Assembly: GCA_003599025.1 (NCBI GenBank) | Contig: QZIL01000021.1 | Coordinates: forward strand, 3,965 to 67,964 | Direction of reading: 5' to 3' | Length of the DNA stretch: 64,000 nt | From: Nitrospiraceae bacterium | GTDB lineage: Bacteria > Nitrospirota > Thermodesulfovibrionia > UBA6902 | Part shown: in pieces, positions 20,278 to 37,866 of the stretch | How positions within the stretch are numbered: position 1 is the stretch's first letter | Layout of the letters: every line of letters begins with the position of its first letter | Position numbers and translations under genes: made by a program | Notes under the pieces: generated by a model | Databases searched by the model: none | Seen by the model: the letters and a program-made list of their open reading frames with translations, nothing else | What the model was told of the DNA's origin: nothing

Positions 20278-20334
20278 TTGTAAATATCGCAAGTCAGACA
20301 AAGGAGGCCGCAGCAAAGGTTTTCATAACATTCA

Positions 20335-22588: not shown

Positions 22589-22622
22589 CAGTATGCGAAT
22601 TTCCTCATGTGAAGCATGCTAT

Positions 22623-24244: not shown

Positions 24245-24245
24245 G

Positions 24246-24896: not shown

Positions 24897-24900
24897 ATAG

Positions 24901-26397
24901 TCACCATCCTTTCAATGACTGTATATTGATCTTTATATTGTCAAATAAACGATAATTCAGAAGCCGGTCAACCATATAGGTCATGCAAAGATATGCTCCG
25001 ATAAAAAGCATTATGAGCAATACTAACTCCGGCAAGCCTGTATTGATCAGGCGGGTTTTCAGCAGGAAGACAAGTAATACCGGAAATCCTGTATTGACCA
25101 GAGACGTGACAGTGGCCCTGCCGAAGTTAATGACACCGCACCCGGTTGCTTTAGTTATCAGATAAAAAGCCGCAAGATTCGGCAACAATGTAGAAAAAAG
25201 AACAGCCATAGAAGTCCCAACTATCCCCCATTTTACAGAAAGAGGATAGATCAGAATAATTAATATAATTAAGACCCAGAATTGCAATTTTGTAACTATC
25301 CCGGGGTTCCCCGTGGATACAAAGACCTGTCCGGCAACTGTCCCTATGGACCTCACTACTCCCCATATAACCAAAACCTGCATTACAGGCACCATCGGAA
25401 GCCATTTCTCTCCTAAAAATATAACGGTAAAATCAGGGGCTAATATAAAAATCATTCCGGCTGCTGGAAATGACAAAAACGCCGTCAGCTGCAGGACCTT
25501 TAAAAATCCCTCCCTTAACCTGGGAAGATCGTCCTGAATCTTGGAGTAAGCCGGGAATGATACCTGAGAGATAACGCTCGAAATTTCTGTAGCGGGAATG
25601 TTTGAAATTTTGTAAGCCATCTGATAAAAGCCGAGCGCGGTCAGACCAAGCAGCTTTCCTACAAAGATATCATCTCCCTGGCTTATTAAGAATACGAGTA
25701 TGCTTGATCCAAAAATCCATTTCCCAAAAACTGCCAGTTCTTTTACCTTTATCAGGTCAAAACGCAGGGAAGGTCTGTACGGATGGATTATGTAGCTCGC
25801 AACAAGTTTGACTATACTTGAAGCAAGCAGACCGAGAACAAGGGCCCAGACACTCCTCAGCGCAAAAGCCGCGGATACAGCTATCGCAAAGTCGGCCAAT
25901 GTACCGCACAAATGATAGATATACATCCTTTTAAATTCCAGTTCTTTTTCATAATAAACGAGCCCGATATTGGTAACAGCCTGGAAAAGCACAGTACATC
26001 CGATTGCCCGGATTATCAACGCTGCTTCAGGGGCCTGAAAAAACGATGCAGCATAAGGCGCAGTAAGATACAATATTGCAAACAGAGCAACTCCACGCAA
26101 AATCGACACTGTCCATGCGCTGTCAAGATATGACCTGATATCTTCTTTCTTCTGAATTAACGCTGTCTGAAATCCGGTCTGCGAAAAAGTTTCAAGGGTC
26201 GCCATGCTTAAAAGCGCAACTCCAAGCAGGCCGAACGCATCAGGTGCAAGAATGCGGGCAAGAACAACAAGCCTTGCCAGACTAAATACCTGTTGAGTAA
26301 TTCTGAGGGCAAAAACCCAGGCTCCGCCTCGTGCTATCCGTTGAGATAACCTAGTTTCCTTGTGAGAAAACTGGTTCATATTCCCTTTAAGTCCCAT
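24901..26397 (-). CDS. wzx: Wzx/WzxC-type flippase
   Basis: LARILAPDAFG, ALIQKK, LGFYQMAY; multi-TM protein. Confidence 0.9.
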   Translation of the reverse strand: MGLKGNMNQFSHKETRLSQRIARGGAWVFALRITQQVFSLARLVVLARILAPDAFGLLGVALLSMATLETFSQTGFQTALIQKKEDIRSYLDSAWTVSILRGVALFAILYLTAPYAASFFQAPEAALIIRAIGCTVLFQAVTNIGLVYYEKELEFKRMYIYHLCGTLADFAIAVSAAFALRSVWALVLGLLASSIVKLVASYIIHPYRPSLRFDLIKVKELAVFGKWIFGSSILVFLISQGDDIFVGKLLGLTALGFYQMAYKISNIPATEISSVISQVSFPAYSKIQDDLPRLREGFLKVLQLTAFLSFPAAGMIFILAPDFTVIFLGEKWLPMVPVMQVLVIWGVVRSIGTVAGQVFVSTGNPGIVTKLQFWVLIILIILIYPLSVKWGIVGTSMAVLFSTLLPNLAAFYLITKATGCGVINFGRATVTSLVNTGFPVLLVFLLKTRLINTGLPELVLLIMLFIGAYLCMTYMVDRLLNYRLFDNIKINIQSLKGW

Positions 26398-26409
26398 AAC
26401 ATTTCAACT

Positions 26410-27774
26410 TCATACACTATTGCCTTCAGGTGCAGCACCGATTTCCGGCAGCATTATAACGATTGCGGCCAGAAAGCAGAACGGCTCCATTATCCGAACG
26501 ATAATAAATGTGCTGGCAGTCAGCGCCTGGACCAGCAATCCCGCGAAACCGCCCAGAAAACCGAGGGTCAGGCCTTTGGCCCAGCCTTCTTCCACCCGGT
26601 CGAGTGTTTGTTTCCCCTTTATGAATATAATTGCCATAATCCACATGTATGCGATGAAGCCCATAATGCCTGTCTCCCCCAGCACTCTCGGATATTGGGC
26701 ATCCACAATACCTAATCCCGTTACTCCGTATCCCAAAAACGGTCGCTCGGTCCACAGGTGCATGATGCGTATCCATTTGTCGATACGCAGTGACCCTGAT
26801 TCGGCAATAGTCACATCTTTACCAAGTACGTTATATGTCTTGCCGGACGCAAACGTGACATCTATACGCTGCTTGACTGATTGAGGTATTACAACCGGCA
26901 ACAGGGCAATTATCAGTAAGAGCCCGGCCACTAAAACAAGCCTGGCCCTTTTTGTCAGGGCTACGATAGTTATAAGCATGGGAAAGAAACCTAGCCAGGA
27001 CCCACGGGACAGGGTAAACAGGAATGGAGGTACAATTAACCCGAGGAAAAGCAGCAGGGGCATGAGCAGATTCAGTGATCTGCAGTAAACAATAATCCCG
27101 ATCGCTATGGCCATCATAAAAAGGAGGTAGCCGCCAAGGGTATTGGCCTCTTCTCCCTCTGATATATCAAAGGGCGCCGCCACCCTTTCAAACCCCGACA
27201 ATTTGAGATACCAGGCGTATATGCTCACGATAAGACATACAAGCAAAAGCAGAAACACATATTTCCTGACCTGTCCCATGTCCCGCAGGTTATTCGCAAC
27301 CATAAAGAAGAGCAGGAAATATTCGATATACTTCAGCACATAAAAAAAAGCGGATTTTATATTCACATGGCCCTGCAGTGCCCCGAACAGCGTGGCCAGC
27401 ACGGCAATGAACACGTAGGCAAGGATAGGACGGACCAGAGGGTTGGACCTCAACAGTCCCAGTTCTTTATGTATGGCCATCTTGGATATCCAGCTGAAAA
27501 AGATAACGAGCAGCAGCAGGTCATCCACCCTTATAACCACCTCACGGCCTGGCACACCACCTATGCCGATCTCCGGCGAAAGAAGCATCGAAAAGATCAG
27601 GATGATAAGCGCTGCATCGGTATTTACAAAGGCGATAAAAAAAACGATCCCCGCAAACAGGACCATGCCCGGTATTGCCAGAGGTGATTTAACTACATAT
27701 AAAAACGCTATCCCGGACAGAAAAATTAATGAAGTGATGACAGCGGTATTTGAACGTTCATTCGTTATATGCAT
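26410..27774 (-). CDS. O-antigen ligase/Wzy polymerase family protein
   Basis: About 12 TM segments; TLSRGSW, R..W...PFLGYG, ETGIMG. Confidence 0.85.
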   Translation of the reverse strand: MHITNERSNTAVITSLIFLSGIAFLYVVKSPLAIPGMVLFAGIVFFIAFVNTDAALIILIFSMLLSPEIGIGGVPGREVVIRVDDLLLLVIFFSWISKMAIHKELGLLRSNPLVRPILAYVFIAVLATLFGALQGHVNIKSAFFYVLKYIEYFLLFFMVANNLRDMGQVRKYVFLLLLVCLIVSIYAWYLKLSGFERVAAPFDISEGEEANTLGGYLLFMMAIAIGIIVYCRSLNLLMPLLLFLGLIVPPFLFTLSRGSWLGFFPMLITIVALTKRARLVLVAGLLLIIALLPVVIPQSVKQRIDVTFASGKTYNVLGKDVTIAESGSLRIDKWIRIMHLWTERPFLGYGVTGLGIVDAQYPRVLGETGIMGFIAYMWIMAIIFIKGKQTLDRVEEGWAKGLTLGFLGGFAGLLVQALTASTFIIVRIMEPFCFLAAIVIMLPEIGAAPEGNSV

Positions 27775-27796
27775 ATTCTAATATTAAGGCGGTTAT

Positions 27797-29737
27797 CTAA
27801 ACCGGCTGGCTTTGCTCCCCGTAATAGCTCTCTTTATCACCATAGTGAATTGGATGTAACGCGGTACCCTTCTGAAGCCTGTTATGATTCAGGACTATTC
27901 CGGAAATATTGGCGCCGACAGATTCGATCTGGATTTTGGCCCTCAAAAGGGATTCCCTTGGCAACTTACCGACCTGATAACACAGAACAACACTGTCAAC
28001 CCTGGAAGCCAGAAGACTGGCATCGGTTACAGGCAGAACAGGCGGAGAATCAAAGAATATATAGTTGAACCTTCTCCTCAGCTCTTCAATCAGCTCCACA
28101 TTTTTTCCCGATTCGAGTATCTCTGCGGGATTAACAGGCGGGTGTCCGCTCGGAAGTATCCATATATTATCCATGCCTGAAGACCCGGTTATCATCTCAA
28201 GCGCCGCATCACCCAAAATAATGTCCGATATGTTCTTCAGCGCCTCATCCAGAGTCGCTGTTCCGGATATGACTTCTGTCAGACCGGGCCCGCTCCTGAT
28301 ACCAAAAGACCTGCTGACAGCAGGTTTCCTTAAGTCGGATGATACCAGCAGGGTTTTTGCTCCTGTCTGGGCAACAGCCAGTCCCAGATTAACAAGCACA
28401 GTTGTCTTGCCTTCCCCGGCTCCCGCGCTTGTGACAAGGATGGTCTTTCTGGAAGGGCCGAGCCTCAGGTTGGTCCTGATATTGCGGAAGGATTCAGCCA
28501 TAAGCGAGGTGGGCAGGTGATGGGTGATCATCCTGATGTATATATCAGCCGACTCCCTGCTGCTGATGTCCGGCATATTGGACGCAGGTTTTGACCGCCC
28601 CTTTTTGATATCTCTGTCTGCAGATGGAACCACACCCAGGACCGGCAGTTTCATTATATTTTCCGCCTCTTCAACGGTCCATATAGACCTGTCCATGGCT
28701 TCGAGGACGAAAACAAGGCCAATCCCTGTTAAAAGTCCTATGAGTCCTCCAAGAAGCACGTTGATATTTCCCGCTGTGTTTACAGGCGCGTTTGACAGTA
28801 CCGCGGGATCGATAATGGACACATCTCCCACTTTTTGCGCCTCTGTAATGCGCGCCTCTTCAAGTTTCTCCTTAAACATCATGTAGAGTTTTGTATTGAT
28901 TTCAACCTCTCGCGCCAGTTTGACCTGCTTAAGTTCCTGCTCCGACAATTCCATATTCTGAAGCGCGTATGAATCGCTTTTTATTTCGAGCCGTGATTCA
29001 AGGTCATTGATCTGCTGCTTGAGCTCTATGATCTTCGGGTTTTTTCCTGTATACCGCTGAGAAAGCCTGGCCAGCTGGTACTTCAGTTCCACAAGATTTT
29101 CCTGAAGATTGCCGGTCTCTTTACCACTGTAAGCAAGCTCCTTTAATCTGCTCGCCTCTTCTTTGGCCCCTCCCATGGTCCTCTCAGACTCTTCCAGCCT
29201 TTTGTTCAGGATCAACAACTGTTCTTCTATGAACAGCCGTGAACTGCGCGCCTGCTCTCTTTTCTCTCTCAAGTTTTCCTCAACATAAACAGCTGCCACC
29301 GTGTTGGCCAGATTCATGGCATCTTCTGCAATATTTGAAATTCCTGTAATCTCAATAATGTTAGTCTGGTCGAGCCTCTTTGTCTCGATCTTCTCCTGCA
29401 GATTACTCACAACCTTATGGACCTGGTCCATTGGTGAATCTTCCTGTATAAGTCCAAGCCTTATGGCAGAGTGCCTTATTATGGGATACCCCTTAATGAT
29501 ATTTGTCTGTGAAGCCATTATGTCTCCGGGATTATACACGATCCACTCTGTCAGGAGCCCCGCAATGGTTTTACGTTCTTCAATTTTTACAGTAGTTGAT
29601 GACTTGTACACAGGAGGCGCTGGAGGAAACAATATTAATCCGGCTATTACGCCTGTCAGCAGCGTAGCGAGTACAAGGAACTTCCTTTTGTAAAATATCC
29701 GTGTGTAATCTTTTATATTAAATTCATATTGCGGCAA
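27797..29737 (-). CDS. wzc: Wzc-type chain-length regulator/BY-kinase
   Basis: Two TM segments, coiled coil, ESFRNIRTN, Walker A GEGKTT, DLRKP, DSPP, C-terminal tyrosines; TTG start. Confidence 0.92.
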   Translation of the reverse strand: MPQYEFNIKDYTRIFYKRKFLVLATLLTGVIAGLILFPPAPPVYKSSTTVKIEERKTIAGLLTEWIVYNPGDIMASQTNIIKGYPIIRHSAIRLGLIQEDSPMDQVHKVVSNLQEKIETKRLDQTNIIEITGISNIAEDAMNLANTVAAVYVEENLREKREQARSSRLFIEEQLLILNKRLEESERTMGGAKEEASRLKELAYSGKETGNLQENLVELKYQLARLSQRYTGKNPKIIELKQQINDLESRLEIKSDSYALQNMELSEQELKQVKLAREVEINTKLYMMFKEKLEEARITEAQKVGDVSIIDPAVLSNAPVNTAGNINVLLGGLIGLLTGIGLVFVLEAMDRSIWTVEEAENIMKLPVLGVVPSADRDIKKGRSKPASNMPDISSRESADIYIRMITHHLPTSLMAESFRNIRTNLRLGPSRKTILVTSAGAGEGKTTVLVNLGLAVAQTGAKTLLVSSDLRKPAVSRSFGIRSGPGLTEVISGTATLDEALKNISDIILGDAALEMITGSSGMDNIWILPSGHPPVNPAEILESGKNVELIEELRRRFNYIFFDSPPVLPVTDASLLASRVDSVVLCYQVGKLPRESLLRAKIQIESVGANISGIVLNHNRLQKGTALHPIHYGDKESYYGEQSQPV

Positions 29738-29825
29738 AGAAAGTCACTCCTCTGTTTTATGAATGCAACATTTAGGATCGTTAACTTATTGCTACCTGTA
29801 AAAGTGATGTCCTGCCTTCATGGTC

Positions 29826-29897
29826 TGTCATTCCGGGCTTGACCCGGAATCCAGAAGAAGACTGGATTCCTCCCGATGCAACAGGACGGGAATGACA
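29826..29897. repeat. dRS3-like palindromic element between wza and wzc
   Basis: tgtcattccgggcttgacccggaatccag...ctggattcc...gggaatgaca. Confidence 0.75.
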
Positions 29898-29943
29898 CTG
29901 CGTGGGACATTTCTTCTGCGTCATTCAATAGCTCCGTCAAACC

Positions 29944-30978
29944 TTACTTTGACAGGGTCTTCACTGTTGTGCCGCCGGAAGTTATGGGGCCGAGAATCTG
30001 GCTCATGAAGTAATTCACATCTGCTATGAATTTTTTCGGAACGTAGACAATGTCTTCAGTCAGTATTTCAACGTTCTGACTTACATCTCTGCCCTTAAAA
30101 GCATCGTTCAGATTAATTCTCTTACCTTCAGGGTTCTCTTTCCCCCCCCTGATAAGCATGACGCTGGATGGCACAGAATCATCGGTAAAACCGTTTGCGC
30201 TGGCTATGGCCTCCAGCACAGACTTGCCGCCCGTCACATAATACACACCCGGAGTTCTCACTTCACCGAGGACAATGACCTTTCTGCGATCAAGCATTTC
30301 AGAGGTGGTTGGAATATAGATAATGTCCTCAGCCTGCACACGTATATTCTGTCCCAGGTCGCTCTTGTCAATGGCCTTGGACAGATCAAGCTTTAGTCCT
30401 GTGGGGTTTTGCTGCCCCTCCCTGATAAGTGTCACGCCTGAGGGGGATGCTGTGTCAGTGAAACCCTGCGCACTGGCTATGGCCTCCATCACGGTGTTTT
30501 CCCCTGTAACAAAATAGACCCCGGGATGTTTCACTGCTCCCATCACAACAACTTTTTTTCCGCCAGATTTTCTGAATGATATGGAGACCTCAGGGTGCTT
30601 GATATAATCTGTCAGTCTTGTTTTTATCCTCTCTTTAAGCTCGGCGAAGGTCAATCCCGAAGCCCTGATGTCCCCTGCCAGAGGAAAAGATATTCTTCCA
30701 TCAGGACGCACTACAACCTCTTCTCTCAGGTCTTCTTCAAGCCATACGGAAATAAACAGTACGTCCCCTTCCTGTATGATATATTCCCGGGAATTGTGCT
30801 CCGAGTGCGTATCAACTGTGAAATTGTCCTCTGCAGTATTTATTTTATTAATGGCCGCACTATGTGCATTAAAGGCGGAACCTTGAGTCAGCAATACAAG
30901 TACGCAAGCCCCCATTACAGGAATAAGGATACCACGGATTAAACTTGGCAGCAGTTTATTAAGTAAAGTATATTTCAT
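29944..30978 (-). CDS. wza: Wza-like polysaccharide export protein with two SLBB domains
   Basis: YIIQEGDVL, VRPDGRISFPLAG, two G.V..PGVY repeats. Confidence 0.88.
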   Translation of the reverse strand: MKYTLLNKLLPSLIRGILIPVMGACVLVLLTQGSAFNAHSAAINKINTAEDNFTVDTHSEHNSREYIIQEGDVLFISVWLEEDLREEVVVRPDGRISFPLAGDIRASGLTFAELKERIKTRLTDYIKHPEVSISFRKSGGKKVVVMGAVKHPGVYFVTGENTVMEAIASAQGFTDTASPSGVTLIREGQQNPTGLKLDLSKAIDKSDLGQNIRVQAEDIIYIPTTSEMLDRRKVIVLGEVRTPGVYYVTGGKSVLEAIASANGFTDDSVPSSVMLIRGGKENPEGKRINLNDAFKGRDVSQNVEILTEDIVYVPKKFIADVNYFMSQILGPITSGGTTVKTLSK

Positions 30979-30984
30979 TCTTTA

Positions 30985-31812
30985 TTAATAGTGAACCAGG
31001 CTGCCTTCCTTTTTTGCCTTTCTAACAGCATATGAAAAGGTCATGACCCCGACAGGCAGAAAGACTGCCGTAAAGAGAGCGAGTGCCCCTATATGCGGGA
31101 CAAGATCCGAAAAAGAGCTCCCTGCCAGAAGCGCGCCCCTGAGCCCGTTTAATGTATGAGTGATCGGCAGAAACATCGCAATGTCCTGGAGGAAATCCGG
31201 CAGAACAGCGACCGGATAATATACCCCGCCAAGGAGGCTGGAGGCTGTAAGGAACACCCAGGTCACAGGATCACCCTTTTTAAAAATCATGATGACGGCT
31301 GCAGATATAATGCCCAGACTGCCCGAGCTTGTTAAGGTCAGGATGAGAATAATCAGTGCAGCGGACAGTTCATTTAATTTCAGATTCACCTTGAAAATTA
31401 ATATCCCTATTATCAGGTACAGAAATATGTCAGCAGTTGCCAGAAGGAATTTCCATAGCGCCTGGCTTACAAGCATTATGGAGAGCCTCGTAGGAGTGAG
31501 CAGGATTGCTTCGAGTGTTCCGGTTATCTGTTCATTTCGTATCGCGTTTGCAAAGCTGCTCAGGCCTGATGAAAGGTAGCCGGAAAAAGCGATGCCGATC
31601 AATACAAAAGGGAAATATTCCCCTCCATATGCCTCCAGATAAGGACTCACTTTATAACCAAATGTTCTGGAAATAAAGAAGAACGTGAGCACAGTAAGAA
31701 CAATGCCTGAAAGATTGAAGAAAAAGAATAAACGGTAACTGGTATCTATAAGGAAGTCACGTTTTATGAAGGCATACGCCCTACGCAGAAACATAAGGTC
31801 CTTCCCTTTCAC
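30985..31812 (-). CDS. ABC-2 type exporter permease
   Basis: EQITGTLEAILLTP, GVYYPVAVLP, PITH. Confidence 0.9.
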   Translation of the reverse strand: MKGKDLMFLRRAYAFIKRDFLIDTSYRLFFFFNLSGIVLTVLTFFFISRTFGYKVSPYLEAYGGEYFPFVLIGIAFSGYLSSGLSSFANAIRNEQITGTLEAILLTPTRLSIMLVSQALWKFLLATADIFLYLIIGILIFKVNLKLNELSAALIILILTLTSSGSLGIISAAVIMIFKKGDPVTWVFLTASSLLGGVYYPVAVLPDFLQDIAMFLPITHTLNGLRGALLAGSSFSDLVPHIGALALFTAVFLPVGVMTFSYAVRKAKKEGSLVHY

Positions 31813-32587
31813 AGATGTCTGCAGGTCCGGTTACCCTTCTGAATATCTCATACAGGTCAGCCTCTGCTGATCCGGTTTCATCCCTCAACTCTCCTAAAGT
31901 ACCCATTGCCATAATCCTGCCGTGATGCATAATTGCTATACGGTCGCATATCTCTTCTGCCTCAGCCATCTGGTGTGTAGTCATAAAGACAGTCTTTCTT
32001 CTCTTTTCCACAAGCTCTGCTTTGATAAACGTTCTTAATTTAGAGGCCGCGAGCGGGTCAAGGCTCTTTGTCGCCTCATCAAGAAAAAGTATCTGAGGAT
32101 CATTGAGCAGGCTCCGGGCAATGAGCATCCGCTGCCTGATGCCGCTTGAGCATTTCTGGAAACTGATATCAGCCTCTTTCTCTATTTCGAGCAGAGAGAG
32201 GACCTCGCCTATTTTTTCCTTTGATGATTCAGAGGACAGTCCGGAGAGGGCTGCAAAGAAATCGAGGTTTTGCCTTCCGGTAAGTCTCCAGTAAAAAGAC
32301 CTGTCATCACCGCTCACAAGACCGATGGACGCCTTGACTTTGCTCTCATAAAGAGACGTGTCATATCCGTTTACAATAATACTGCCCGACGTAGGAATTA
32401 TGAGTGTGCAGAGTAGCTTGATCAGGGTTGATTTCCCTGCCTGGTTCGGCCCGACCAGGCCGAAGAGTTCCCCCTCCCTCACGTCAAGTGCTACCCCGTC
32501 AACTGCTTTAAGGATCTCCCTTCTGCCCCATATCGGCCCCTGCCGGAAATGCTTCTTTAAATTCGATGTATGTATGGCAATATTCAT
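31781..32587 (-). CDS. ABC exporter ATP-binding protein
   Basis: GPNQAGKST, SSGIRQR, LFLDE, TTH. Confidence 0.92.
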   Translation of the reverse strand: MNIAIHTSNLKKHFRQGPIWGRREILKAVDGVALDVREGELFGLVGPNQAGKSTLIKLLCTLIIPTSGSIIVNGYDTSLYESKVKASIGLVSGDDRSFYWRLTGRQNLDFFAALSGLSSESSKEKIGEVLSLLEIEKEADISFQKCSSGIRQRMLIARSLLNDPQILFLDEATKSLDPLAASKLRTFIKAELVEKRRKTVFMTTHQMAEAEEICDRIAIMHHGRIMAMGTLGELRDETGSAEADLYEIFRRVTGPADICEREGPYVSA

Positions 32588-34254
32588 GACCTGAGTGATA
32601 CCTGTTTTGAAAAATGAAACATTACTCTTAAAGCAGTTCCTGCCCCTGCACGTATCCTTTTCACATAATCATGGACACCTGCCCTCTCACCTTCCTTTTT
32701 CTGAATCAGGGAGAGTTCGCTTTTTGAAGGGAAAAGTAATCTCCACAAAAACAGAAACCTGTCCTTTATCGACTCATTCATGCCAAGGCAGATAAGCCAC
32801 TCGCCCGTTAAAATAGGGGTGCCGCGCAATACAGAAGAAAGAAACGTGCGCTCGATAAGGCCGATCCTCCGGGGCCTCAACCTCCTGAGGACCTCCTCAG
32901 GTATATCTGCATTGAAAATCCCTGATACAAGGTACAGAGTGTAATAAACACTCTTGGAAAGATTAAAGGCAGATGCGTCCTTAACAAGCATCTCCCAGTC
33001 AATTTCTTCACCCTTTGATCTCAGGACCTCGTTAATATCGCACAGTCTTACAAGGGGATGAAAGGAATGATTCAGTGCGTGCATGCATAAGTAAATGATG
33101 TTGTGGTGAAGGGAAAAGGTCCTTATGTGCGCATTGTCCAGATTCATTGATATCGATTCATCCCACAACCTGTTCATATCAATCCTTTGCATTACATTTA
33201 AATGGAAAGGTGAGAAATTAACGATATGCCAGTGAACATGCAGTGAGACAGGAGAAACGCCATCTGACCTGTATACGATGCTGTTGCGATACTGCCCTGT
33301 TGCTACAGTGCTGAAATCCCTGATCTCAAATTCAGGTTTGAACCCGTGTCTGCGTAATGTACGGTCTGCTTTTGCAAGGTCATCTTTTCTGACAAGAAGA
33401 TCTATGTCCCCCATCGGGCGCATACCGACATCTTTATAAACCGATTGGGCCAATGCAAGCCCCTTAAAGACTATAATCTCTATCTTCTCCCTGTTAAAGG
33501 CAGCTGCAATCATTTCAAGAGAATGGAGCATCGGGATGTTCTTGCCTGAAACAGAATAATAAAAGTCCTTCAGATGGCCCCTGACATGACAGGGGGCCAC
33601 GTGCTCTATCCCTTCTATCTTGTTCAATGTCCTGTAAACTAAAGATGCCGTGTCCTCTCCCTGAAGCTGTTTCAGAAAATAGTCCCAGTCAACATACTGG
33701 TCAAGTATCTTACAGACAGCCATTTCACGCTCATTATCAAGGACCGTGACTGAGCAGAGGCGTATAAGCCTGTCTTCTGCCTTCATCTCCCGGCTGAACC
33801 TGTTCATTGTGCGGCATTTAATTCGGTACGCCGTCATCTTGAAAAGCTGGTAAAAGTCAAATAAAACGTTGATCGCCCTGCCGTGCCATTTATCCAGACA
33901 GATGGAAAATAATTTCTTATGGATCTTGACTACCCTGCCCAGCAATTGCCGGTCTTTGAAGGCTTCTTCTTCCGTATATGCCATGTCCGCCTTGGGCACA
34001 AGTATGACTTCCCCATGCTGAACTGTTTTTCTTACTAGCCTATGAAGAATGAGTGCGGAGTTTCTTTCAAACAGGATTATGTCCCCCGGCTCCACTTCTG
34101 ATGCACTGCTTTTTTGTACTACAACCCGGTCCATAGGATTTATAATTGGCTGCATGCTGCCGGTAGCTGTGTGGAAAGACCATTCCTTTACGTTCAAGAC
34201 TGATTCCTTTATATAGTCAACGCAGAATAATCCGGCTTTTTCTTCAATATCCAT
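32584..34254 (-). CDS. Fusion of an S24/S26-like peptidase and a nucleotidyltransferase (NTP_transf_5-like)
   Basis: N-terminal TGSMQP...PGDIILF...LHRL; C-terminal FKGLALA...RPMGDIDLLV...HVHW...LCD. Confidence 0.82.
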   Translation of the reverse strand: MDIEEKAGLFCVDYIKESVLNVKEWSFHTATGSMQPIINPMDRVVVQKSSASEVEPGDIILFERNSALILHRLVRKTVQHGEVILVPKADMAYTEEEAFKDRQLLGRVVKIHKKLFSICLDKWHGRAINVLFDFYQLFKMTAYRIKCRTMNRFSREMKAEDRLIRLCSVTVLDNEREMAVCKILDQYVDWDYFLKQLQGEDTASLVYRTLNKIEGIEHVAPCHVRGHLKDFYYSVSGKNIPMLHSLEMIAAAFNREKIEIIVFKGLALAQSVYKDVGMRPMGDIDLLVRKDDLAKADRTLRRHGFKPEFEIRDFSTVATGQYRNSIVYRSDGVSPVSLHVHWHIVNFSPFHLNVMQRIDMNRLWDESISMNLDNAHIRTFSLHHNIIYLCMHALNHSFHPLVRLCDINEVLRSKGEEIDWEMLVKDASAFNLSKSVYYTLYLVSGIFNADIPEEVLRRLRPRRIGLIERTFLSSVLRGTPILTGEWLICLGMNESIKDRFLFLWRLLFPSKSELSLIQKKEGERAGVHDYVKRIRAGAGTALRVMFHFSKQVSLRS

Positions 34255-34307: not shown

Positions 34308-34454
34308 CTAAGCCATCAGTTTTGTACAGGGAACCGCCTTCATACATACTCTCGGAGCGATACGTGAGGAATTGCATACCACTGACAATACTTCAATCTT
34401 CTTCTCATATACGATCTCAGGCTTTTTATATGCTTTTTTCTTCTCTTCCTTCAT
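34308..34454 (-). CDS. 48-aa putative RiPP precursor peptide (not in the ORF track)
   Basis: MKEEKKKAYKKPEIVYEKKIEVLSVVCNSSRIAPRVCMKAVPCTKLMA*. The ATG lies 1 nt after the rSAM stop, with a GAGGTG RBS. It has a YxxP leader motif and Cys27/37/43. Confidence 0.85.
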   Translation of the reverse strand: MKEEKKKAYKKPEIVYEKKIEVLSVVCNSSRIAPRVCMKAVPCTKLMA

Positions 34455-34455: not shown

Positions 34456-35484
34456 TCACACCTCTAAACATGTTCCCCTGGCAGTATTTTTCAGCGCTTT
34501 TGCAAGCATACACGCCGCACTCGACGGCCCCAGATAATCTTCATCTTCAGACACCGCCAGTCCTGGGCAGCGGCGGCAGTATGGCGCCTTATCACACGAT
34601 CTGCAGGTATGGAGTTCATCAAACTTAATCGACCTTATTCGCTGAAAATGTCCTGACTGCATAATCTGTTCAATTGATTGTTCCCGTACGTTTCCTGCGT
34701 CCTGTTTCCAGCCGACGCAGGGATAAACTTCACCATATGGGGATATCAAAAGGTTGTTCAGTCCGGCAGTACACATAAATGTGTCGTCATTAACAGACTC
34801 CAATGGCTCAAAAGAAGCGGCCCTGTCGTCCTCCCTGAATATTTTAGTCATACCATCGGTATCGAGTCTGTAACGCAACGTGTCCCTTGAACCGTCATCT
34901 TTCGGTACAACGGTCATGTCATATACGAAATCCGAGTCGAGTTCATGGGACAGCTTTGTTAAAGCACCCAGCTGGTCTGCATTCTGATTCATCAGGAGGC
35001 TTTTAACTACTCTTTTTACCCCTCTTTGACCAAGCAGCTGAAAAGCCCTCATGGTCTTCTTAAAGGAACCTTTCGTGCCGGTAATACTGTCATGTATTTC
35101 AGGGTCAGCAGCGTATACGCTCATCTCTACCGACAGGGGATTGAGTTGCTTTATCTCATCAGCCATTTCACTGCTGATAAACGTGCCGTTTGTTAACAGC
35201 CTCAATGCAAACCCTTTGCTGCGGCTATAACGCGCAATTGTGAAAAAATCCTTTCTAGTTAAAATCTCACCGCCGCTGAATGTTATATACAGGGACTGAA
35301 GGGCTGCCAGTTCATCAATAACAGACATGATCTCTTCTGTGGTTAGCTCTTTTTTATCATCCCTGCGGACGCAGTAGCAGTGGCTGCAGGCCATGTTGCA
35401 TCTGTGTGTAAGCTCCCAATGTACAATAAAGGGGATGTTCCTCTCCATTGTCTTTTTTATAATGTCGTTGTAATGGTCCTTCAT
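34456..35484 (-). CDS. Radical SAM/SPASM peptide-maturase-like protein
   Basis: CNMACSHC, SGGE; full SPASM pattern CTAG..YPC..CRSC..YCRRCPG..C. Confidence 0.92.
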   Translation of the reverse strand: MKDHYNDIIKKTMERNIPFIVHWELTHRCNMACSHCYCVRRDDKKELTTEEIMSVIDELAALQSLYITFSGGEILTRKDFFTIARYSRSKGFALRLLTNGTFISSEMADEIKQLNPLSVEMSVYAADPEIHDSITGTKGSFKKTMRAFQLLGQRGVKRVVKSLLMNQNADQLGALTKLSHELDSDFVYDMTVVPKDDGSRDTLRYRLDTDGMTKIFREDDRAASFEPLESVNDDTFMCTAGLNNLLISPYGEVYPCVGWKQDAGNVREQSIEQIMQSGHFQRIRSIKFDELHTCRSCDKAPYCRRCPGLAVSEDEDYLGPSSAACMLAKALKNTARGTCLEV

Positions 35485-35498
35485 ATTGTCCTTCTTTA

Positions 35499-35712
35499 CC
35501 TTTCGGTTACATTAAAATGTGTATAGCGGGCCGGGTAGACTTGCAGCAAAAGCTTTACCATCGATACCTCAGAGAAGCTTTTTCAAGGCATATCTGCGTT
35601 TTTCGTAATTCCACCATGTGTTACGTCCTGCTATACTCACTAATTCCAATGTCCTATCGCATTTGTAAAGGTTTTGCTGCATGTCCACCCGCCGCTTTGT
35701 ACATAATCAAGG
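35499..35712. mobile_element. 214-bp MITE-like element, copy 2 (between the PqqD and rSAM genes)
   Basis: Shares aaaagctttacc, cgatacct, ccatg.gttacgtcctgc, atcgcatt and gtaaaggtttt with copy 1. CC...GG ends and the same length. Confidence 0.7.
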
Positions 35713-35718
35713 TTTAGT

Positions 35719-36021
35719 TTAAGTAAGGGCCTCTTCCTTCGGGTGTTCAAGATATATGAGCATGTCTCTCGCGTACAGATCATTAATAAATTCTCTCGTG
35801 TCGTTCAGCGCGTCATCATAAGACACGTCAAATTCCTCTGAAATGACCAAAGCGATCCGGTCTGTTCTGAGGTCCCCGTTTAAAAGCTCCCATATCCGCG
35901 AACCTGTCCCGTTCAGGACCATCACCTTGTTCTCCTGAGGTGAAATAATTACCGCTTCGTTGTCTATCACCCGTGATGCTGTTTGAGGCGACCTGTCAGG
36001 ATACATGCTGTTTAAGTCCAT
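35719..36021 (-). CDS. PqqD-family RiPP recognition element (RRE)
   Basis: EAVII...LNGTGSRIWELLNG...EEFDV...DTREFINDL, the canonical stand-alone PqqD pattern. Confidence 0.9.
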   Translation of the reverse strand: MDLNSMYPDRSPQTASRVIDNEAVIISPQENKVMVLNGTGSRIWELLNGDLRTDRIALVISEEFDVSYDDALNDTREFINDLYARDMLIYLEHPKEEALT

Positions 36022-36808
36022 CTATATGCCTCCAGAATGAATTATCTTTTGTAAAATGCATTTCATACAAGCCATATTCAACAAGAATTCTGCTGAATAT
36101 ATCAAAGAGTTTCTCAACCGGCTGCAGCTTGTTCGGAATATGTGGAACCGTTAAGATATCTGCCAGGGCCTGCGAGAGGGACAATTCTTTTATATACGTT
36201 GTGTTGTCCTGCTTCAGTGTAAATATTCCGCCAATATCATAGCCTCTGTTTTCCCTTTTGCCTATATGCATGTCCAGCCAGTGGGGGGCAGTGTAGGCCT
36301 GATATTTGCCGTTGCTTCGTTTAATGATCACCATATCATCACTTAATATGGTACAGTCGTCTGACAACGCAGACACAGTTGATTTACCTGCGCCTGAGTG
36401 GCCCATAAATATATAAACTTCATCATCCTTCAGTATCCCCGCTGCGTGCAAAACCACCGCATCTTCGTGCAGGATAAGCCTGAAGGTAAACATATTTCTC
36501 AGGAGAGTGCCGAGTCCCATTAACATGCCGCTTCTGCTTATAAGGGCCGAGCCGCAGGTAAGGTCTTTGTTAATTTTACTCTCCAGGTGATCGTCTGACA
36601 GTCTTAATTCATCGCCAGTGACCGACAGACCGGCCCAGGAGGAATTATTGACATACGGCTCATCAGTAAGCGTTATGTCCAGAGTAAGGGATGGCGGCCT
36701 GTCAGAAAGGAAAAGAGAATAATCCCTCCGGACACTGCTGATGAATTCAGAGGACTCTGATCTTAACATGATGCAAATTTCTGCAACTTCTATTTTTATC
36801 TCTTTCAT
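35996..36808 (-). CDS. HPr-kinase-like P-loop protein (ScmC/PadeK-like)
   Basis: LHAAG...GHSGAGKST...LSDD. The ATG at 36808 forms a TGATG overlap with the HD-GYP stop; the track gives 36832. Confidence 0.82.
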   Translation of the reverse strand: MKEIKIEVAEICIMLRSESSEFISSVRRDYSLFLSDRPPSLTLDITLTDEPYVNNSSWAGLSVTGDELRLSDDHLESKINKDLTCGSALISRSGMLMGLGTLLRNMFTFRLILHEDAVVLHAAGILKDDEVYIFMGHSGAGKSTVSALSDDCTILSDDMVIIKRSNGKYQAYTAPHWLDMHIGKRENRGYDIGGIFTLKQDNTTYIKELSLSQALADILTVPHIPNKLQPVEKLFDIFSRILVEYGLYEMHFTKDNSFWRHIDGLKQHVS

Positions 36809-37866
36809 CAGTCTCCGCTTTGCTTCAGACATTCCTTGATGTGAATAATGGGATAGTTCAGTAAATTAATTATGTTCTGTTCGTCCGGTTTTTTGTAATC
36901 ACTGTTTAAAAGCACATGCAGTACCGGCCTTGTTGGGTGGCCCTGATTGATTGCAGCAACCCGGCATGTTTCTCCGGTATTTAATCTGACCAGGCTTCCG
37001 ACAGGGTAGACCCCGACCATATTAATAAAAGCCTTCATTACTTTATAGTCATAGGAGTGTTTCATCTGTAATATGTTATGTACCGATTCATGGGGCATAC
37101 ATCTGTCGCGATGCGGCCGTGAATGGGTCAGGGCCTCATATGTGTCCGCAAGATGTATTATCCGGGAGTATATATTGAGGGATTCTCCTCTCAGGCCACG
37201 GGGATAGCCTGATCCGTCTATGCGTTCATGATGCTGAAGTGCGACCTGAACAGCTACTTCGGGCAATTCATCGGCCTCCTCCAGAATTCCGGCACTCATG
37301 AATGTATGGTTCTGTATTTCCCTGTATTCTTTAGAGGAAAGTTTTCCGGGCTGCATGGCCTGCTTCATATATTTCATCATTCCTATATCATGAAGAAATG
37401 CCGAGATACCGAGTTCTGTTAATCCGGTCTTGTCGTAACCTATGTCCTGCCCGATTTTAATTGATAATATACTCACATTGACTACATGGCTGCTGAGATA
37501 ATCCTGCGCGTTCCCGGACATTAGAACAGGCAGATGACTGTTATTGAGGAGCAACTGCTCGACAAGTTTCTCTACGCATAAATTTACAGGACCACACTTA
37601 ATAACTTCATTCCCGGACAACCTGTCATGGATCTCTTTTGCAAGAGCCATTGCCATATGATAAAGGTCCGAACTTTCACTTTCATTTTGTGCAGTGCTTT
37701 TCTGCTTTTCAGAAAGCTTTGAACTGAATACATCAAAGGACGTGTCGTCCAGACCACCCGGCCCGCTATATCCCTCTGCAGAAATATCGCGCTCTGCCTG
37801 TGTCTCCTGTTCTATAGCCTTATGCCTGATATAATCTCTGTGACTGCTGGCCTTCACTTCTTTCAC
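36808..37866 (-). CDS. HD-GYP c-di-GMP phosphodiesterase domain protein
   Basis: LHDIG, HHERIDGSGYPRG, ADTYEALT. Confidence 0.92.
   Translation of the reverse strand: MKEVKASSHRDYIRHKAIEQETQAERDISAEGYSGPGGLDDTSFDVFSSKLSEKQKSTAQNESESSDLYHMAMALAKEIHDRLSGNEVIKCGPVNLCVEKLVEQLLLNNSHLPVLMSGNAQDYLSSHVVNVSILSIKIGQDIGYDKTGLTELGISAFLHDIGMMKYMKQAMQPGKLSSKEYREIQNHTFMSAGILEEADELPEVAVQVALQHHERIDGSGYPRGLRGESLNIYSRIIHLADTYEALTHSRPHRDRCMPHESVHNILQMKHSYDYKVMKAFINMVGVYPVGSLVRLNTGETCRVAAINQGHPTRPVLHVLLNSDYKKPDEQNIINLLNYPIIHIKECLKQSGD

What the first reader, a model, noticed from the sequence alone, without database searches (positions are those of the whole stretch)
34308..34454. Hidden 48-aa precursor with a lasso-type YxxP leader and a C-x9-C-x5-C core
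Seen in sequence: MKEEKKKAYKKPEIVYEKKIEVLSVVCNSSRIAPRVCMKAVPCTKLMA, which is shorter than any ORF in the track and absent from it. It starts 1 nt after the rSAM stop and has a GAGGTG RBS. Established: YxxPxL/I is the RRE-binding motif of lasso leaders. Seen: the C-terminal half has no Asp or Glu after residue 21, so lasso macrolactam formation is implausible. It does carry three Cys (possible thioether donors) and Ser/Thr (possible kinase targets).
Basis: partly seen in the sequence, partly recalled or inferred. Interest (0 to 1): 0.88.

Follow-up and report, generated by a model that had tools for sequence, protein, structure and literature searches.

The report
Cysteine-rich peptide precursor beside radical-SAM enzyme
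The 48-codon reading frame is a real, conserved gene for a small peptide that neighbouring enzymes very probably cross-link, phosphorylate, trim and export, and it belongs to a large, still unnamed family of such peptides.

Summary
A 48-aa ORF lies on the minus strand at 34454->34308. It starts 1 nt after the rSAM/SPASM stop, with GAGGTG 4 nt upstream.

It is under strong purifying selection. Against the ortholog L003, 47 codons show 21 synonymous and 14 non-synonymous changes; I14-S29 shows 10 and 0.

Relatives lie next to rSAM homologues in 51 of 80 genome loci and 70 of 80 metagenome loci, always on the rSAM strand. A profile finds 1465 representative proteins. No Pfam or NCBIfam model matches.

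Shared features are a K-K-x-Y-x-K-P leader, an invariant first Cys and a near-invariant second Cys. Most members end in Ser. The window's own clade (11 sequences) keeps Y9, P12, C27, C37 and C43, but its last residue varies.

[quoted passage not shown] It sits at the head of a polysaccharide locus. This matches the 'linear polyphosphorylated peptide' (LPP) clusters of Bacillota described in 2026, plus an rSAM/SPASM maturase and Cys-bearing cores, which that paper's main text does not mention.

It is not a lasso peptide. Thioether chemistry is inferred, not shown.

The parts
34308..34454 (-). Precursor peptide gene (48 aa plus TAG stop). The leader carries Y9-x-x-P12 (codons 34430-34419). The invariant Cys are C27 (34376-34374), C37 (34346-34344) and C43 (34328-34326).
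34459..34464 (-). GAGGTG Shine-Dalgarno-like hexamer, 4 nt before the ATG. It lies inside the last codons of the rSAM gene, which suggests translational coupling.
   Evidence: read directly from the sequence.
34456..35484 (-). Radical SAM/SPASM enzyme (342 aa) with no fused RRE. It has CxxxCxxC at C29/C33/C36 and seven further conserved Cys (C238, C256, C294, C297, C303, C306, C325).
   Evidence: Pfam PF04055 3.7e-25 and PF13186 4.3e-12. Invariant columns. Closest solved structures are SkfB at 6e-16 and PqqE at 5.9e-11.
35485..35718 (-). 234-nt spacer between PqqD and rSAM. It is a dispersed, hairpin-forming repeat (MITE/REP-like insertion) that is absent from the orthologous loci.
   Evidence: 24 matches in the genome. 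(z = -3.84). (gaps of 42 nt and 2 nt in L003 and L004).
35719..36021 (-). Discrete PqqD-family RiPP recognition element (100 aa).
   Evidence: PF05402 7.8e-15. lasso_PqqD_Bac 2e-8, below cut-off. PDB TbiB1 and LppB.
35996..36832 (-). HprK-like P-loop kinase (278 aa) with GHSGAGKST.
   Evidence: ScmC, HprK_rel_B and HprK_rel_A hits at 1.5e-7 to 5e-6, all below cut-off. Sequence. The P-loop is kept in 61-62 of 62 homologues.
36808..37866 (-). HD-domain protein (HD_5; HD-GYP-like). It overlaps the kinase gene start. Whether it belongs to the system is uncertain.
   Evidence: PF13487 5.5e-26. Homologues found in 7 of 80 genome loci.
32584..34254 (-). Fusion protein of 556 aa. The N-terminal part is an archaeal/SipW-type signal-peptidase-I-like domain (S33 in GSMQP, H71 in LHRL). 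The rest is an NTP_transf_5 nucleotidyltransferase domain (188-447).
   Evidence: PF14907 4.5e-51 and PF00717 6.4e-5. TIGR02228 2e-8, below cut-off. S-M-x-P kept in 41 of 42 and H-R in 42 of 42 homologues.
31781..32587 (-). ABC transporter ATPase (DrrA-like). Its start overlaps the stop of the fusion gene.
30985..31812 (-). ABC-2 type permease.
17959..30978 (-). Context: a same-strand exopolysaccharide locus directly downstream. Scanned genes are Wza-like (29944-30978), Wzc-like (27797-29737), Wzy_C (26410-27774), a Polysacc_synt_3 flippase (24901-26397) and five glycosyltransferases between 17959 and 23546. Two ORFs at 23543-24896 were not scanned.

Best explanation
The ORF is the precursor (A) gene of a RiPP operon. 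The operon combines the enzyme set of phosphorylated 'LPP'/paeninodin-type peptides with a radical SAM/SPASM maturase.

Proposed pathway, all inferred unless marked shown:
1. The discrete PqqD protein binds the leader through Y9-x-x-P12 and the following beta-strand residues. This is how the lasso B1 and LppB RREs bind their leaders.
2. The RRE-less rSAM/SPASM enzyme is recruited. It modifies the core at or through the invariant Cys (C27, C37, C43), most probably by forming intramolecular thioether (sactionine or ranthionine-type) bridges.
3. The HprK-like kinase phosphorylates a Ser. In most of the family this is presumably the near-universal C-terminal Ser. In the window's clade that Ser is not kept, and the best candidate is S29, part of a C-x-[S/T] motif kept in 11 of 11 clade members.
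4. The NTP_transf_5 domain may decorate the phosphate.
5. The fused signal-peptidase-like domain removes the leader somewhere between E21 and C27.
6. The ABC-2 pump exports the product.

Shown here: the gene is real, conserved and under purifying selection. The motif, the Cys and the gene set recur across phyla.

I put genuine precursor status at about 0.9, and rSAM chemistry being Cys-based thioether formation at about 0.5.
For: Coding and conservation:
- Against L003 (rSAM 68% identical, another genus), 47 aligned codons show 21 synonymous changes, 14 non-synonymous changes and 12 identical codons. pS is 0.89 and pN 0.17. I14-S29 shows 10 synonymous and 0 non-synonymous changes.
- P0002 is 83% identical.
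- Clade alignment A6 (11 sequences) has K7, Y9, P12, I14, Y16, K18, E21, L23, C27, C37 and C43 invariant.

Family:
- An iterative HMM on 9270 small ORFs of 81 loci gave 52 hits at E<0.01.
- On 13,863 stop-to-stop fragments of 80 metagenome loci it gave 73 hits in 70 loci.
- All 125 hits are on the rSAM strand.
- In A3 (47 sequences) P12 and C27 are invariant, and Y9 and C37 are kept in at least 90%.
- A profile search of 1.84 billion representatives found 1465 at E<=1e-3 and 179 at E<=1e-10.

Gene set:
- HprK-like genes occur in 60 of 80 and 62 of 80 loci, and PqqD in 38 of 80 and 71 of 80.
- A peptide and an HprK-like gene occur together in 46 and 55 loci.
- Gene order differs between clades. 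The peptide lies downstream of rSAM in 23 genome loci and upstream in 28. The association therefore does not depend on order.

RRE and leader:
- The PqqD protein is nearest to TbiB1 (4.8e-6) and LppB 9x8z_B (2.1e-4).
- The complex prediction scored 0.47 against a best control of 0.02. The verdict was 'weak support'. The mark was reached by 58 of 80 solved complexes and 2 of 110 mismatches, but scores at or under 0.60 were reached by only 7 of those 80 and by both mismatches. Runs agree in at least 93% of contacts, and partner pLDDT is at least 53. Similar complexes are solved, so the pass may come from memory.

Literature:
- PMC13381572 (sections 4, 6, 7, 8 and 12 read). [quoted passage not shown] The leader motif is YxxPxVLxHQxIxFETxxS. 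YxxP is needed for RRE binding. SpI cleaves the leader, and the kinase polyphosphorylates a core Ser.
- PMC8498205 (passages read). HPr-kinase homologues phosphorylate the C-terminal Ser of lasso precursors. A nucleotidyltransferase, sometimes fused to the leader protease, adds hexoses to the phosphate.

Enzyme integrity:
- P-loop GHSGAGKST is present.
- The Ser/His pair of the peptidase domain is conserved.
- The SPASM Cys set is conserved.
- The closest solved rSAM is the thioether synthase SkfB.
Against: - No product, transcript or binding measurement exists.
- The rSAM's best NCBIfam scores are to MftC (142 bits), AhbD and NirJ2. The sactipeptide maturase StsB scores 128 bits. All are far below cut-off, so sequence does not point specifically to thioether chemistry.
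- The SkfB match covers only the rSAM core (residues 13-178).
- The window's clade lacks the conserved terminal Ser: its last residue is A in 3, S in 4, N in 2, D in 1 and Q in 1. The kinase step is least certain exactly here.
- The leader's resemblance to the LPP logo is partial. The window has I-E-V where LPP has F-E-T, and there is no Ser three residues after it.
- The HMM was built iteratively from its own hits, so motif conservation within the hits is partly circular.
- Only 2 of 40 sampled relatives of the genome carry a close rSAM ortholog. No other genome of 400 sampled in the phylum carries the peptide.
Confidence: 0.8

Rival explanations
1. It is a true precursor, but the rSAM does not make Cys thioethers. 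It would carry out other chemistry, such as a C-C or C-O cross-link, epimerisation, Cys-to-formylglycine-type oxidation, or C-terminal processing as MftC does. The conserved Cys would instead form a disulfide or ligate the enzyme's auxiliary cluster.
For: - The best NCBIfam scores are to MftC, AhbD, NirJ and PqqE rather than to sactisynthases.
- Most family members have only two Cys with a fixed C-x9-C spacing, in 133 of the top 150. That would suit a disulfide loop.
- The C-terminus (…N-R-K-x-S) is as conserved as the Cys in the largest clade.
Against: - C27 is the only core residue invariant in all 47 aligned members, and C37 is kept in at least 90%.
- The C-terminus is not conserved in the window's clade, although the rSAM is.
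- The nearest solved rSAM is the thioether synthase SkfB.
Confidence: 0.3
2. It is an ordinary linear LPP-type phosphopeptide. The rSAM gene would be an unrelated neighbour, for example acting on the polysaccharide or on a cofactor.
For: All LPP core functions are present without the rSAM (PMC13381572 section 6).
Against: - The loci were found through the rSAM, and 121 of 160 of them carry the peptide on the same strand.
- In the window the rSAM stop and the peptide start are 1 nt apart.
- The rSAM has no RRE of its own, while a discrete PqqD gene is found in 38 of 80 and 71 of 80 loci.
- The Cys are invariant in this family. LPP cores are described as highly variable (PMC13381572 section 6).
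Confidence: 0.05
3. It is the precursor of a peptide-derived redox cofactor (PQQ or mycofactocin-like) rather than of an exported peptide.
For: The trio of rSAM/SPASM, discrete PqqD and small peptide is the PQQ/mycofactocin layout. MftC is the top NCBIfam hit at 142 bits.
Against: - The score is far below the MftC cut-off of 265.
- There is no conserved Glu/Tyr pair or C-terminal Tyr.
- A leader peptidase, a kinase and an exporter are present in the operon.
Confidence: 0.04
4. It is a lasso peptide precursor.
For: The leader has YxxP, and the PqqD protein is most like the lasso B1 protein TbiB1.
Against: - No Asn-synthetase-like cyclase or transglutaminase-like B2 protease is among the 20 ORFs scanned at 17959-41991.
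- There is no Asp or Glu after residue 21 in the window's peptide.
Confidence: 0.01
5. It is a chance ORF in an intergenic spacer.
For: It is short, was found as a called protein only twice in the 5.8-billion-protein word search, and no RNA data exist.
Against: - Ten synonymous and no non-synonymous changes across I14-S29.
- A family of 1465 representative proteins.
- All 125 hits lie on the rSAM strand.
Confidence: 0.01

Closest known systems
Linear polyphosphorylated peptide (LPP) clusters of Bacillota (Popov et al., Nat Commun 2026, PMC13381572; sections 4, 6, 7, 8, 12 read)
   Same: - Discrete RRE, with LppB (PDB 9x8z_B) matching the window's PqqD at E 2.1e-4.
- HprK-like kinase.
- Archaeal/SipW-type signal peptidase I as presumed leader peptidase.
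- Uncharacterised NTP transferase.
- Exporter.
- Location in a polysaccharide biosynthesis locus.
- Leader beginning with YxxPx[V/I], followed by a conserved h-x-h-E-[T/V] stretch.
   Different: - An rSAM/SPASM maturase is present. The words 'radical' and 'SPASM' do not occur in that paper's main text, and its supplements were not seen.
- The core has invariant Cys.
- The exporter is a two-gene ABC-2 type, not MsbA-like.
- The peptidase is fused to the NTP transferase.
- There is no Ser three residues after the E-T/V motif.
- Hosts are Acidobacteriota, Nitrospirota, Omnitrophota, Desulfobacterota and others by record titles. The paper calls LPPs restricted to Bacillota.
Phosphorylated or phosphoglycosylated lasso peptides (paeninodin, pseudomycoidin; review PMC8498205, passages read)
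   Same: - [Y/W]xxP leader bound by a discrete PqqD-type B1.
- An HPr-kinase homologue that phosphorylates a C-terminal Ser of the precursor.
- A nucleotidyltransferase, sometimes fused to the leader protease.
- Most members of the present family also end in Ser: 46 of 52, 66 of 73 and 147 of 150.
   Different: - No lasso cyclase and no B2 cysteine protease.
- No acidic ring-closing residue in the window's peptide.
- rSAM/SPASM stands in as the class-defining enzyme.
- The window's own clade does not keep the terminal Ser.
Sactipeptides and ranthipeptides (rSAM/SPASM thioether peptides, e.g. SkfB/SKF, AlbA/subtilosin, StsB, PapB)
   Same: - rSAM with a SPASM domain.
- Cys-bearing core.
- RRE-dependent leader recognition.
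- SkfB is the nearest solved structure by sequence (6e-16).
   Different: - The RRE is a separate protein, not an N-terminal domain of the rSAM.
- NCBIfam scores to StsB, AlbA, SkfB and PapB are all far below cut-off.
- A kinase, an NTP transferase and a signal-peptidase-type leader peptidase are added.
- Thioether formation is untested.
SynChlorMet (SCM) cassette, NCBIfam TIGR04248-TIGR04251
   Same: It is the only curated system whose models hit three of the proteins: ScmC (HprK-like) at 1.5e-7, ScmD (PqqD-like) at 1.4e-6 and ScmE (rSAM/SPASM) at 2.6e-26.
   Different: - Every score is far below the curated cut-off: 31 against 125, 28.5 against 100, and 92 against 400.
- The window has one rSAM rather than two.
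- No paper holding the word 'SynChlorMet' is in the searched library.

Membership tests
RiPP precursor peptide (generic) | Small gene in an operon with its maturase and RRE, conserved in syntenic loci | tested here: met
   Starts 1 nt after the rSAM stop. Present in L003, L051 and L131-L139 beside rSAM orthologs. Found in 121 of 160 loci.
RiPP precursor peptide (generic) | Protein-level purifying selection | tested here: met
   pS 0.89 against pN 0.17, with 10 synonymous and 0 non-synonymous changes in I14-S29.
RiPP precursor peptide (generic) | Translated and modified in vivo | not testable with these tools
   No RNA run is listed. No proteomics is available.
Lasso peptide | [Y/W]xxP leader motif with a discrete PqqD-type B1 | tested here: met
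   Y9 and P12 are invariant or near-invariant. PqqD is nearest to TbiB1.
Lasso peptide | Asn-synthetase-like macrolactam cyclase and transglutaminase-like B2 protease in the cluster | tested here: not met
   Pfam scans of the 20 ORFs spanning 17959-41991 show neither.
Lasso peptide | Asp or Glu at core position 7-9 for ring closure | tested here: not met
   No D or E after residue 21 of the window's peptide.
LPP (Popov et al. 2026) | Archaeal/SipW-type signal peptidase I co-located with a discrete RRE | tested here: met
   TIGR02228 at 2e-8, below the cut-off of 51.85 bits. Ser/His motifs kept in 41-42 of 42 homologues. PqqD matches LppB 9x8z_B at 2.1e-4.
LPP (Popov et al. 2026) | HprK-like kinase and uncharacterised NTP transferase | tested here: met
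   P-loop kinase with weak HprK_rel and ScmC hits. PF14907 at 4.5e-51. Whether LppN is itself a PF14907 protein was not checked.
LPP (Popov et al. 2026) | Leader consensus YxxPxVLxHQxIxFETxxS with a phospho-Ser three residues after the cleavage site | tested here: inconclusive
   The window has Y-K-K-P-E-I-V-Y-E-K-K-I-E-V-L-S-V-V-C. YxxPx[I] and an I-E-V block are present. The spacing differs, and the Ser is not at the same place.
LPP (Popov et al. 2026) | Linear product: no further class-defining maturase | tested here: not met
   An rSAM/SPASM gene is translationally coupled to the precursor gene.
Sactipeptide / ranthipeptide | rSAM enzyme with CxxxCxxC and a SPASM (or twitch) Cys set | tested here: met
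   PF04055 and PF13186. C29, C33 and C36 plus six downstream Cys are invariant, and C325 is kept in at least 90%.
Sactipeptide / ranthipeptide | Cys S to C-alpha, C-beta or C-gamma thioether in the product | not testable with these tools
   Only the donors (three invariant Cys) can be seen.
Sactipeptide / ranthipeptide | Membership of a curated maturase family (StsB, AlbA, SkfB, PapB, SCIFF) | tested here: not met
   The best score, to StsB, is 127.6 bits against a cut-off of 625. AlbA scores 90.7 against 850, and SkfB 74.1 against 300.
SynChlorMet cassette | ScmC, ScmD, ScmE and ScmF above NCBIfam cut-offs | tested here: not met
   31.1 against 125, 28.5 against 100, 92.4 against 400, and 68.1 against 400.
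PQQ / mycofactocin | PqqE or MftC equivalog, and a precursor with a Glu-x3-Tyr or C-terminal Val-Tyr target (target motifs recalled, not from a call) | tested here: not met
   MftC scores 142.3 against 265, and PqqE 107.6 against 381. The peptide ends in K-L-M-A.

The most novel reading that the evidence does not exclude
This would be a new RiPP class rather than a side branch of LPPs. Its products would be rSAM-cross-linked, phospho-(glyco)sylated peptides encoded by well over a thousand distinct precursors across Acidobacteriota and several anaerobic phyla. In the window, the product would be functionally coupled to the downstream exopolysaccharide machinery. For example, the phosphoserine and NTP-transferase step could link the stapled peptide covalently to a sugar or polysaccharide, making a peptide-capped or peptide-primed glycan. 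The rSAM chemistry on the invariant Cys could also be of a kind not yet described.
Probability: 0.12. Interest if true: 0.85.

Novelty: new variant of a known kind. Interest (0 to 1): 0.64.

Why it matters
- **The gene is missed by annotation.** The word search of 5.8 billion proteins found the window's peptide as a called protein only twice (itself and P0002, 83% identical). No Pfam or NCBIfam model covers the family. Yet a profile finds 1465 representative clusters.

- **It links three groups that have been treated separately.** These are phosphorylated lasso peptides, the LPP family described in 2026, and rSAM/SPASM cross-linked peptides. All appear to be built around the same YxxP-leader and RRE module. 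This shows how one leader-recognition module is re-used with different class-defining enzymes.

- **It widens the known range of the LPP-type enzyme set.** The signal-peptidase-type leader peptidase, HprK-like kinase and NTP transferase occur well beyond Bacillota.

- **It gives testable substrates.** The peptides are short, with two or three fixed Cys and usually a terminal Ser. They suit work on the rSAM chemistry, on kinase site choice, and on the still unknown role of the NTP_transf_5 enzymes.

- **The polysaccharide context recurs.** In the window the operon sits at the head of a polysaccharide locus, as reported for LPPs. This suggests a role at the cell surface or in biofilm, which nobody has tested.

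Tried and rejected
- **Word search with the peptide.** It returned only the peptide itself and P0002. It is too insensitive for short peptides, and the profile search replaced it.
- **Peptide profile A1 against 401 genomes of the phylum.** Only the window's own genome matched. All other matches had E >= 0.0037 and lay inside long ORFs, so I treated them as noise.
- **First genome-contig scan with the single rSAM.** It gave 43 pattern matches and no relatives. It was repeated with alignment A2.
- **First metagenome scan with peptide alignment A1.** It gave 592 pattern matches and no relatives. It was repeated with rSAM alignment A5.
- **Hairpin or attenuator after the peptide gene.** z was +1.04, and 176 of 200 shuffles folded at least as well. 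Rejected.
- **Promoter and terminator scan of 30900-38400.** There were 17 promoter-like sites against 13.6 expected, and none was informative.
- **Rfam on 34200-35800 at E<=1.** No match.
- **RNA evidence.** No RNA holder is listed. Three DNA runs of one groundwater study hold parts of the stretch.
- **Protein atlas.** The nearest clusters are unnamed (0.93 and 0.91). The nearest named ones, DUF5972 at 0.79 and Subterisin at 0.76, are below the level the tool treats as more than a lead.
- **PDB search with the peptidase-NTP_transf_5 fusion.** No match at E<=1.
- **Looser search in the 14 genome loci with a kinase but no peptide hit.** It gave one strong hit, L055 at 2.4e-15, whose frame runs on past the usual end. 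It also gave five weak YxxP-bearing candidates (E 0.012-0.22). These are not counted in the totals.
- **Exopolysaccharide context in other loci.** Wza or Wzc homologues appear within the 5-kb flanks in only 2 of the 80 genome loci (L082, L089). The polysaccharide link is therefore not general in that sample.
- **Literature searches that found no description of an rSAM-containing version.**
  - 'HPr kinase' + 'radical SAM' + 'PqqD' + 'precursor peptide': 0 papers.
  - 'HPr kinase' + 'radical SAM' + 'RiPP': 1 paper, on lasso clusters only.
  - 'HprK' + 'radical SAM' + 'peptide': 1 paper, listing only, an unrelated genome paper.
  - 'Acidobacteri' + 'RiPP' + 'SPASM' + 'kinase': 1 paper, a conference abstract book, listing only.
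  - 'SynChlorMet': 0 papers.
  - 'linear polyphosphorylated peptide': only PMC13381572.
  - Subscription journals and paper supplements were not searchable. Supplementary Data 2 of PMC13381572 (domain co-occurrence) could list Radical_SAM, and I did not see it.
Full report
**1. The observation**

- The ORF exists as described, but on the minus strand. Its ATG is at 34454-34452, it has 48 codons, and its stop TAG is at 34310-34308.
- The upstream 342-aa ORF (35484->34456) ends in TGA at 34458-34456. Exactly one base separates that stop from the ATG.
- GAGGTG (34464-34459) lies 4 nt before the ATG, inside the end of the upstream gene. This is the layout of translational coupling.
- The peptide is MKEEKKKAYKKPEIVYEKKIEVLSVVCNSSRIAPRVCMKAVPCTKLMA.
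- It has Y9-K-K-P12, Cys at 27, 37 and 43 (C-x9-C-x5-C), and no Asp or Glu after E21.

**2. Surroundings**

All genes of the cluster are on the minus strand, and they overlap or nearly abut.

| Gene | Coordinates | Main evidence |
|---|---|---|
| HD-domain protein | 37866-36808 | PF13487 5.5e-26 |
| HprK-like P-loop kinase | 36832-35996 | GHSGAGKST; weak ScmC and HprK_rel hits |
| Discrete PqqD protein | 36021-35719 | PF05402 7.8e-15 |
| rSAM/SPASM enzyme, no RRE domain | 35484-34456 | PF04055 and PF13186 |
| Peptide gene | 34454-34308 | see sections 3 and 4 |
| Fusion of signal-peptidase-I-like domain and NTP_transf_5 (556 aa) | 34254-32584 | TIGR02228 sigpep_I_arch 2e-8; PF14907 4.5e-51 |
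| ABC ATPase | 32587-31781 | |
| ABC-2 permease | 31812-30985 | |

- Directly downstream on the same strand comes an exopolysaccharide locus. Its scanned genes are Wza-like, Wzc-like, Wzy_C, a Polysacc_synt_3 flippase and five glycosyltransferases.
- The 234-nt gap between PqqD and rSAM is a dispersed hairpin-forming repeat. It is absent from the orthologous loci, where the gaps are 42 nt and 2 nt.

**3. Is it a gene?**

- Among 40 sampled relatives of the genome, only two carry a close rSAM ortholog. These are G018 (68% identity) and G023 (83%, where the contig ends inside the gene).
- In G018 (L003) the rSAM is followed by a 52-aa ORF with the same leader and the same C-x9-C-x5-C. The same peptidase-NTP_transf_5 fusion comes next.
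- A codon comparison of window and L003 covered 47 codons.
  - It gave 21 synonymous changes, 14 non-synonymous changes and 12 identical codons.
  - pS is 0.89, which is saturated, and pN is 0.17.
  - From I14 to S29 there are 10 synonymous changes and no non-synonymous change.
  - Non-synonymous changes cluster between C27 and C37 and at the C-terminus.
- This is the signature of a translated precursor with a constrained leader and Cys scaffold.
- The word search of 5.8 billion proteins found only the peptide itself and one 83%-identical protein. Gene callers mostly miss this gene.

**4. The family**

*How the loci were gathered.*
- The rSAM has 470 homologues at E<=1e-40. The few that carry names come from Thermodesulfovibrionia, Syntrophobacterales, Thermodesulfobacteriota and Omnitrophica.
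- An alignment of 40 of these (A2) retrieved 80 genome loci. Many are Acidobacteriota/Terriglobia. Others are Anaerolineae, Omnitrophota, Planctomycetota, Nitrospirota and Desulfobacterota.

*Neighbouring genes in the 80 genome loci.*
- tblastn with the window's cluster proteins found HprK-like genes in 60 of 80 loci.
- It found PqqD in 38, a signal-peptidase-like domain in 31 and NTP_transf_5 in 25.

*Peptide hits.*
- An HMM seeded with four peptides was iterated over 9270 small ORFs of 81 loci. It gave 52 hits at E<0.01, in 51 of the 80 loci plus L003.
- A peptide and a kinase occur together in 46 loci. Five loci have the peptide only, 14 the kinase only, and 15 neither.
- The peptide gene is downstream of the rSAM in 23 loci, within 100 nt in 13 of them. 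It is upstream in 28 loci, usually before the peptidase, kinase and PqqD genes. The association therefore survives gene rearrangement.

*Independent second sample.*
- Eighty metagenome loci were retrieved with rSAM alignment A5. They gave 73 hits in 70 loci.
- HprK-like genes are in 62 of these loci and PqqD in 71.
- All 125 hits of both samples lie on the rSAM strand. This serves as an internal control against chance ORFs.

*Conserved features.*
- In alignment A3 (47 sequences) P12 and C27 are invariant. Y9 and C37 are kept in at least 90%.
- A profile of A3 against 1.84 billion representative proteins found 1465 at E<=1e-3 and 179 at E<=1e-10.
- Of the best 150, 149 have [YFW]xxP, 142 have exactly two Cys after the motif, 133 have C-x9-C, and 147 end in Ser.
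- In the locus samples, 46 of 52 and 66 of 73 end in Ser.
- No Pfam or NCBIfam model matches the window's peptide or 11 relatives tested.

**5. The window's own clade**

Eleven sequences beside rSAMs of 47-89% identity form a three-Cys clade (A6).
- K7, Y9, P12, I14, Y16, K18, E21, L23, C27, C37 and C43 are invariant.
- The C27-C37 gap is 9 residues in 9 of 11. The C37-C43 gap is 4-7 residues.
- Residue 29 is Ser or Thr in all 11, giving a C-x-[S/T] motif.
- The last residue is A in 3, S in 4, N in 2, D in 1 and Q in 1.
- The family-wide terminal Ser is therefore not kept here, although the kinase gene is intact.
- Some clade members have Asp or Glu in the core. The lack of acidic residues is a property of the window's peptide only.

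**6. Comparison with what is known**

*PDB matches.*
- The PqqD protein is nearest in the PDB to the lasso RRE TbiB1 (5v1u, 4.8e-6).
- Its next match is 9x8z_B (2.1e-4). PMC13381572 identifies 9x8z as the complex of LppB with its leader.

*What the LPP paper reports (sections 4, 6, 7, 8, 12 read).*
- It describes 'linear polyphosphorylated peptides' of Bacillota.
- The clusters lie in capsular polysaccharide loci. [quoted passage not shown]
- The precursor motif is YxxPxVLxHQxIxFETxxS.
- Y and P are needed for RRE binding. The leader is cleaved after the Thr by the signal peptidase, with help from the RRE. Ser3 of the core is polyphosphorylated.
- The review PMC8498205 (passages read) reports related findings for lasso peptides. 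HPr-kinase homologues phosphorylate the C-terminal Ser of lasso precursors. A nucleotidyltransferase, sometimes fused to the leader protease, adds hexoses to that phosphate.

*How the window compares.*
- The window's operon has every one of these functions and the same kind of genomic setting.
- Its peptidase domain keeps S-M-x-P (41 of 42 homologues) and H-R (42 of 42). I recall these as the Ser/His pair of SipW/Sec11-type enzymes; the recollection is not from a call.
- What is added is the rSAM/SPASM enzyme and the invariant Cys.
- The words 'radical' and 'SPASM' do not occur in the paper's main text, and it calls LPPs restricted to Bacillota.
- Six further literature searches found no description of an rSAM-containing version.

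**7. Mechanism**

*Shown.*
- The gene is real and constrained.
- The leader motif, the Cys and the enzyme set co-occur across phyla.

*Inferred by homology with solved or tested systems.*
- PqqD binds Y9-x-x-P12.
- The signal-peptidase domain removes the leader.
- The kinase phosphorylates a Ser.
- The NTP_transf_5 domain may act on the phosphate.
- The ABC-2 pump exports the product.

*Complex prediction of PqqD with the peptide.*
- The score was 0.47 against a best control of 0.02, and the verdict was 'weak support'.
- The mark was reached by 58 of 80 solved complexes and 2 of 110 mismatches. Scores at or under 0.60 were reached by only 7 of those 80 and by both mismatches.
- Runs agree in at least 93% of contacts, and partner pLDDT is at least 53.
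- Similar complexes are solved, so the pass may reflect likeness only.

*Inferred with less support: the rSAM makes thioether bridges from the Cys.*
- For: the Cys are the only universally conserved core residues.
- For: the enzyme has a full SPASM Cys set.
- For: the nearest solved rSAM is the thioether synthase SkfB (6e-16).
- Against: the NCBIfam scores to MftC, AhbD, NirJ2 and PqqE are as good as or better than those to sactisynthases, and all are far below cut-off.
- I put Cys-thioether chemistry at about 0.5.

*The kinase site in the window's clade is open.* S29 is the only hydroxyl residue kept in all 11 members.

**8. Verdict**

- The peptide is not a lasso precursor.
- It is the substrate gene of an rSAM-bearing relative of the LPP and paeninodin-type phosphopeptide systems.
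- It belongs to a large, uncurated precursor family.
- I rate it a new variant of a known kind. Interest is moderate to high for RiPP biology.

**Limits**
- There is no expression or product evidence.
- The HMM was iterated on its own hits.
- Loci were retrieved through the rSAM, so clusters without an rSAM were not sampled.
- Flanks were only 4-5 kb.
- Paper supplements and subscription literature were not seen.

Noticed in passing
window 35485-35718 (minus strand); another copy at about window 14703-14836: The 234-nt spacer between the PqqD and rSAM genes is a dispersed repeat. It has 24 matches in the genome, itself included, at 69-93% identity, in both orientations and on many contigs. It folds into a long hairpin with terminal inverted repeats (-67.2 kcal/mol, z = -3.84). 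The orthologous loci L003 and L004 lack it, so it looks like a MITE/REP-like insertion inside the operon. It has no Rfam match.
   Followed up: partly
L142 (5162-5344 and 8424-8642), L143 (1167-1349 and 4390-4626), L144 (5156-5338 and 8379-8615): Some metagenome loci carry two precursor copies about 3.2 kb apart. The cores are identical and the N-terminal regions differ.
   Followed up: no
L055:3037-3399 (+): This is a family precursor (E 2.4e-15) whose reading frame runs on for about 50 residues past the position of the second Cys instead of ending in Ser. It may be a frameshift, an assembly error or a decayed copy.
   Followed up: no
window 36808-37866 (-): An HD_5 (HD-GYP-like) protein gene overlaps the start of the kinase gene. 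Its best NCBIfam hit is a c-di-GMP phosphodiesterase response-regulator family, far below cut-off. Homologues lie near the cassette in 7 of 80 genome loci. This hints at a c-di-GMP link between the peptide system and polysaccharide production.
   Followed up: no
genome G000: The window's genome gave 21 matches to the rSAM query, one of the two highest counts among the 41 genomes searched (G005 also 21). It therefore holds many rSAM-type genes. None of the other matches is a close paralog; the next best has 37% identity on contig C21.
   Followed up: no
window 38447-41991: Upstream of the cassette on the other strand lie a 329-aa ORF with no Pfam match at E<=1e-5 and a response-regulator-receiver protein (39440-40570). 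A Rho termination factor gene (40711-41991, minus strand) follows.
   Followed up: no
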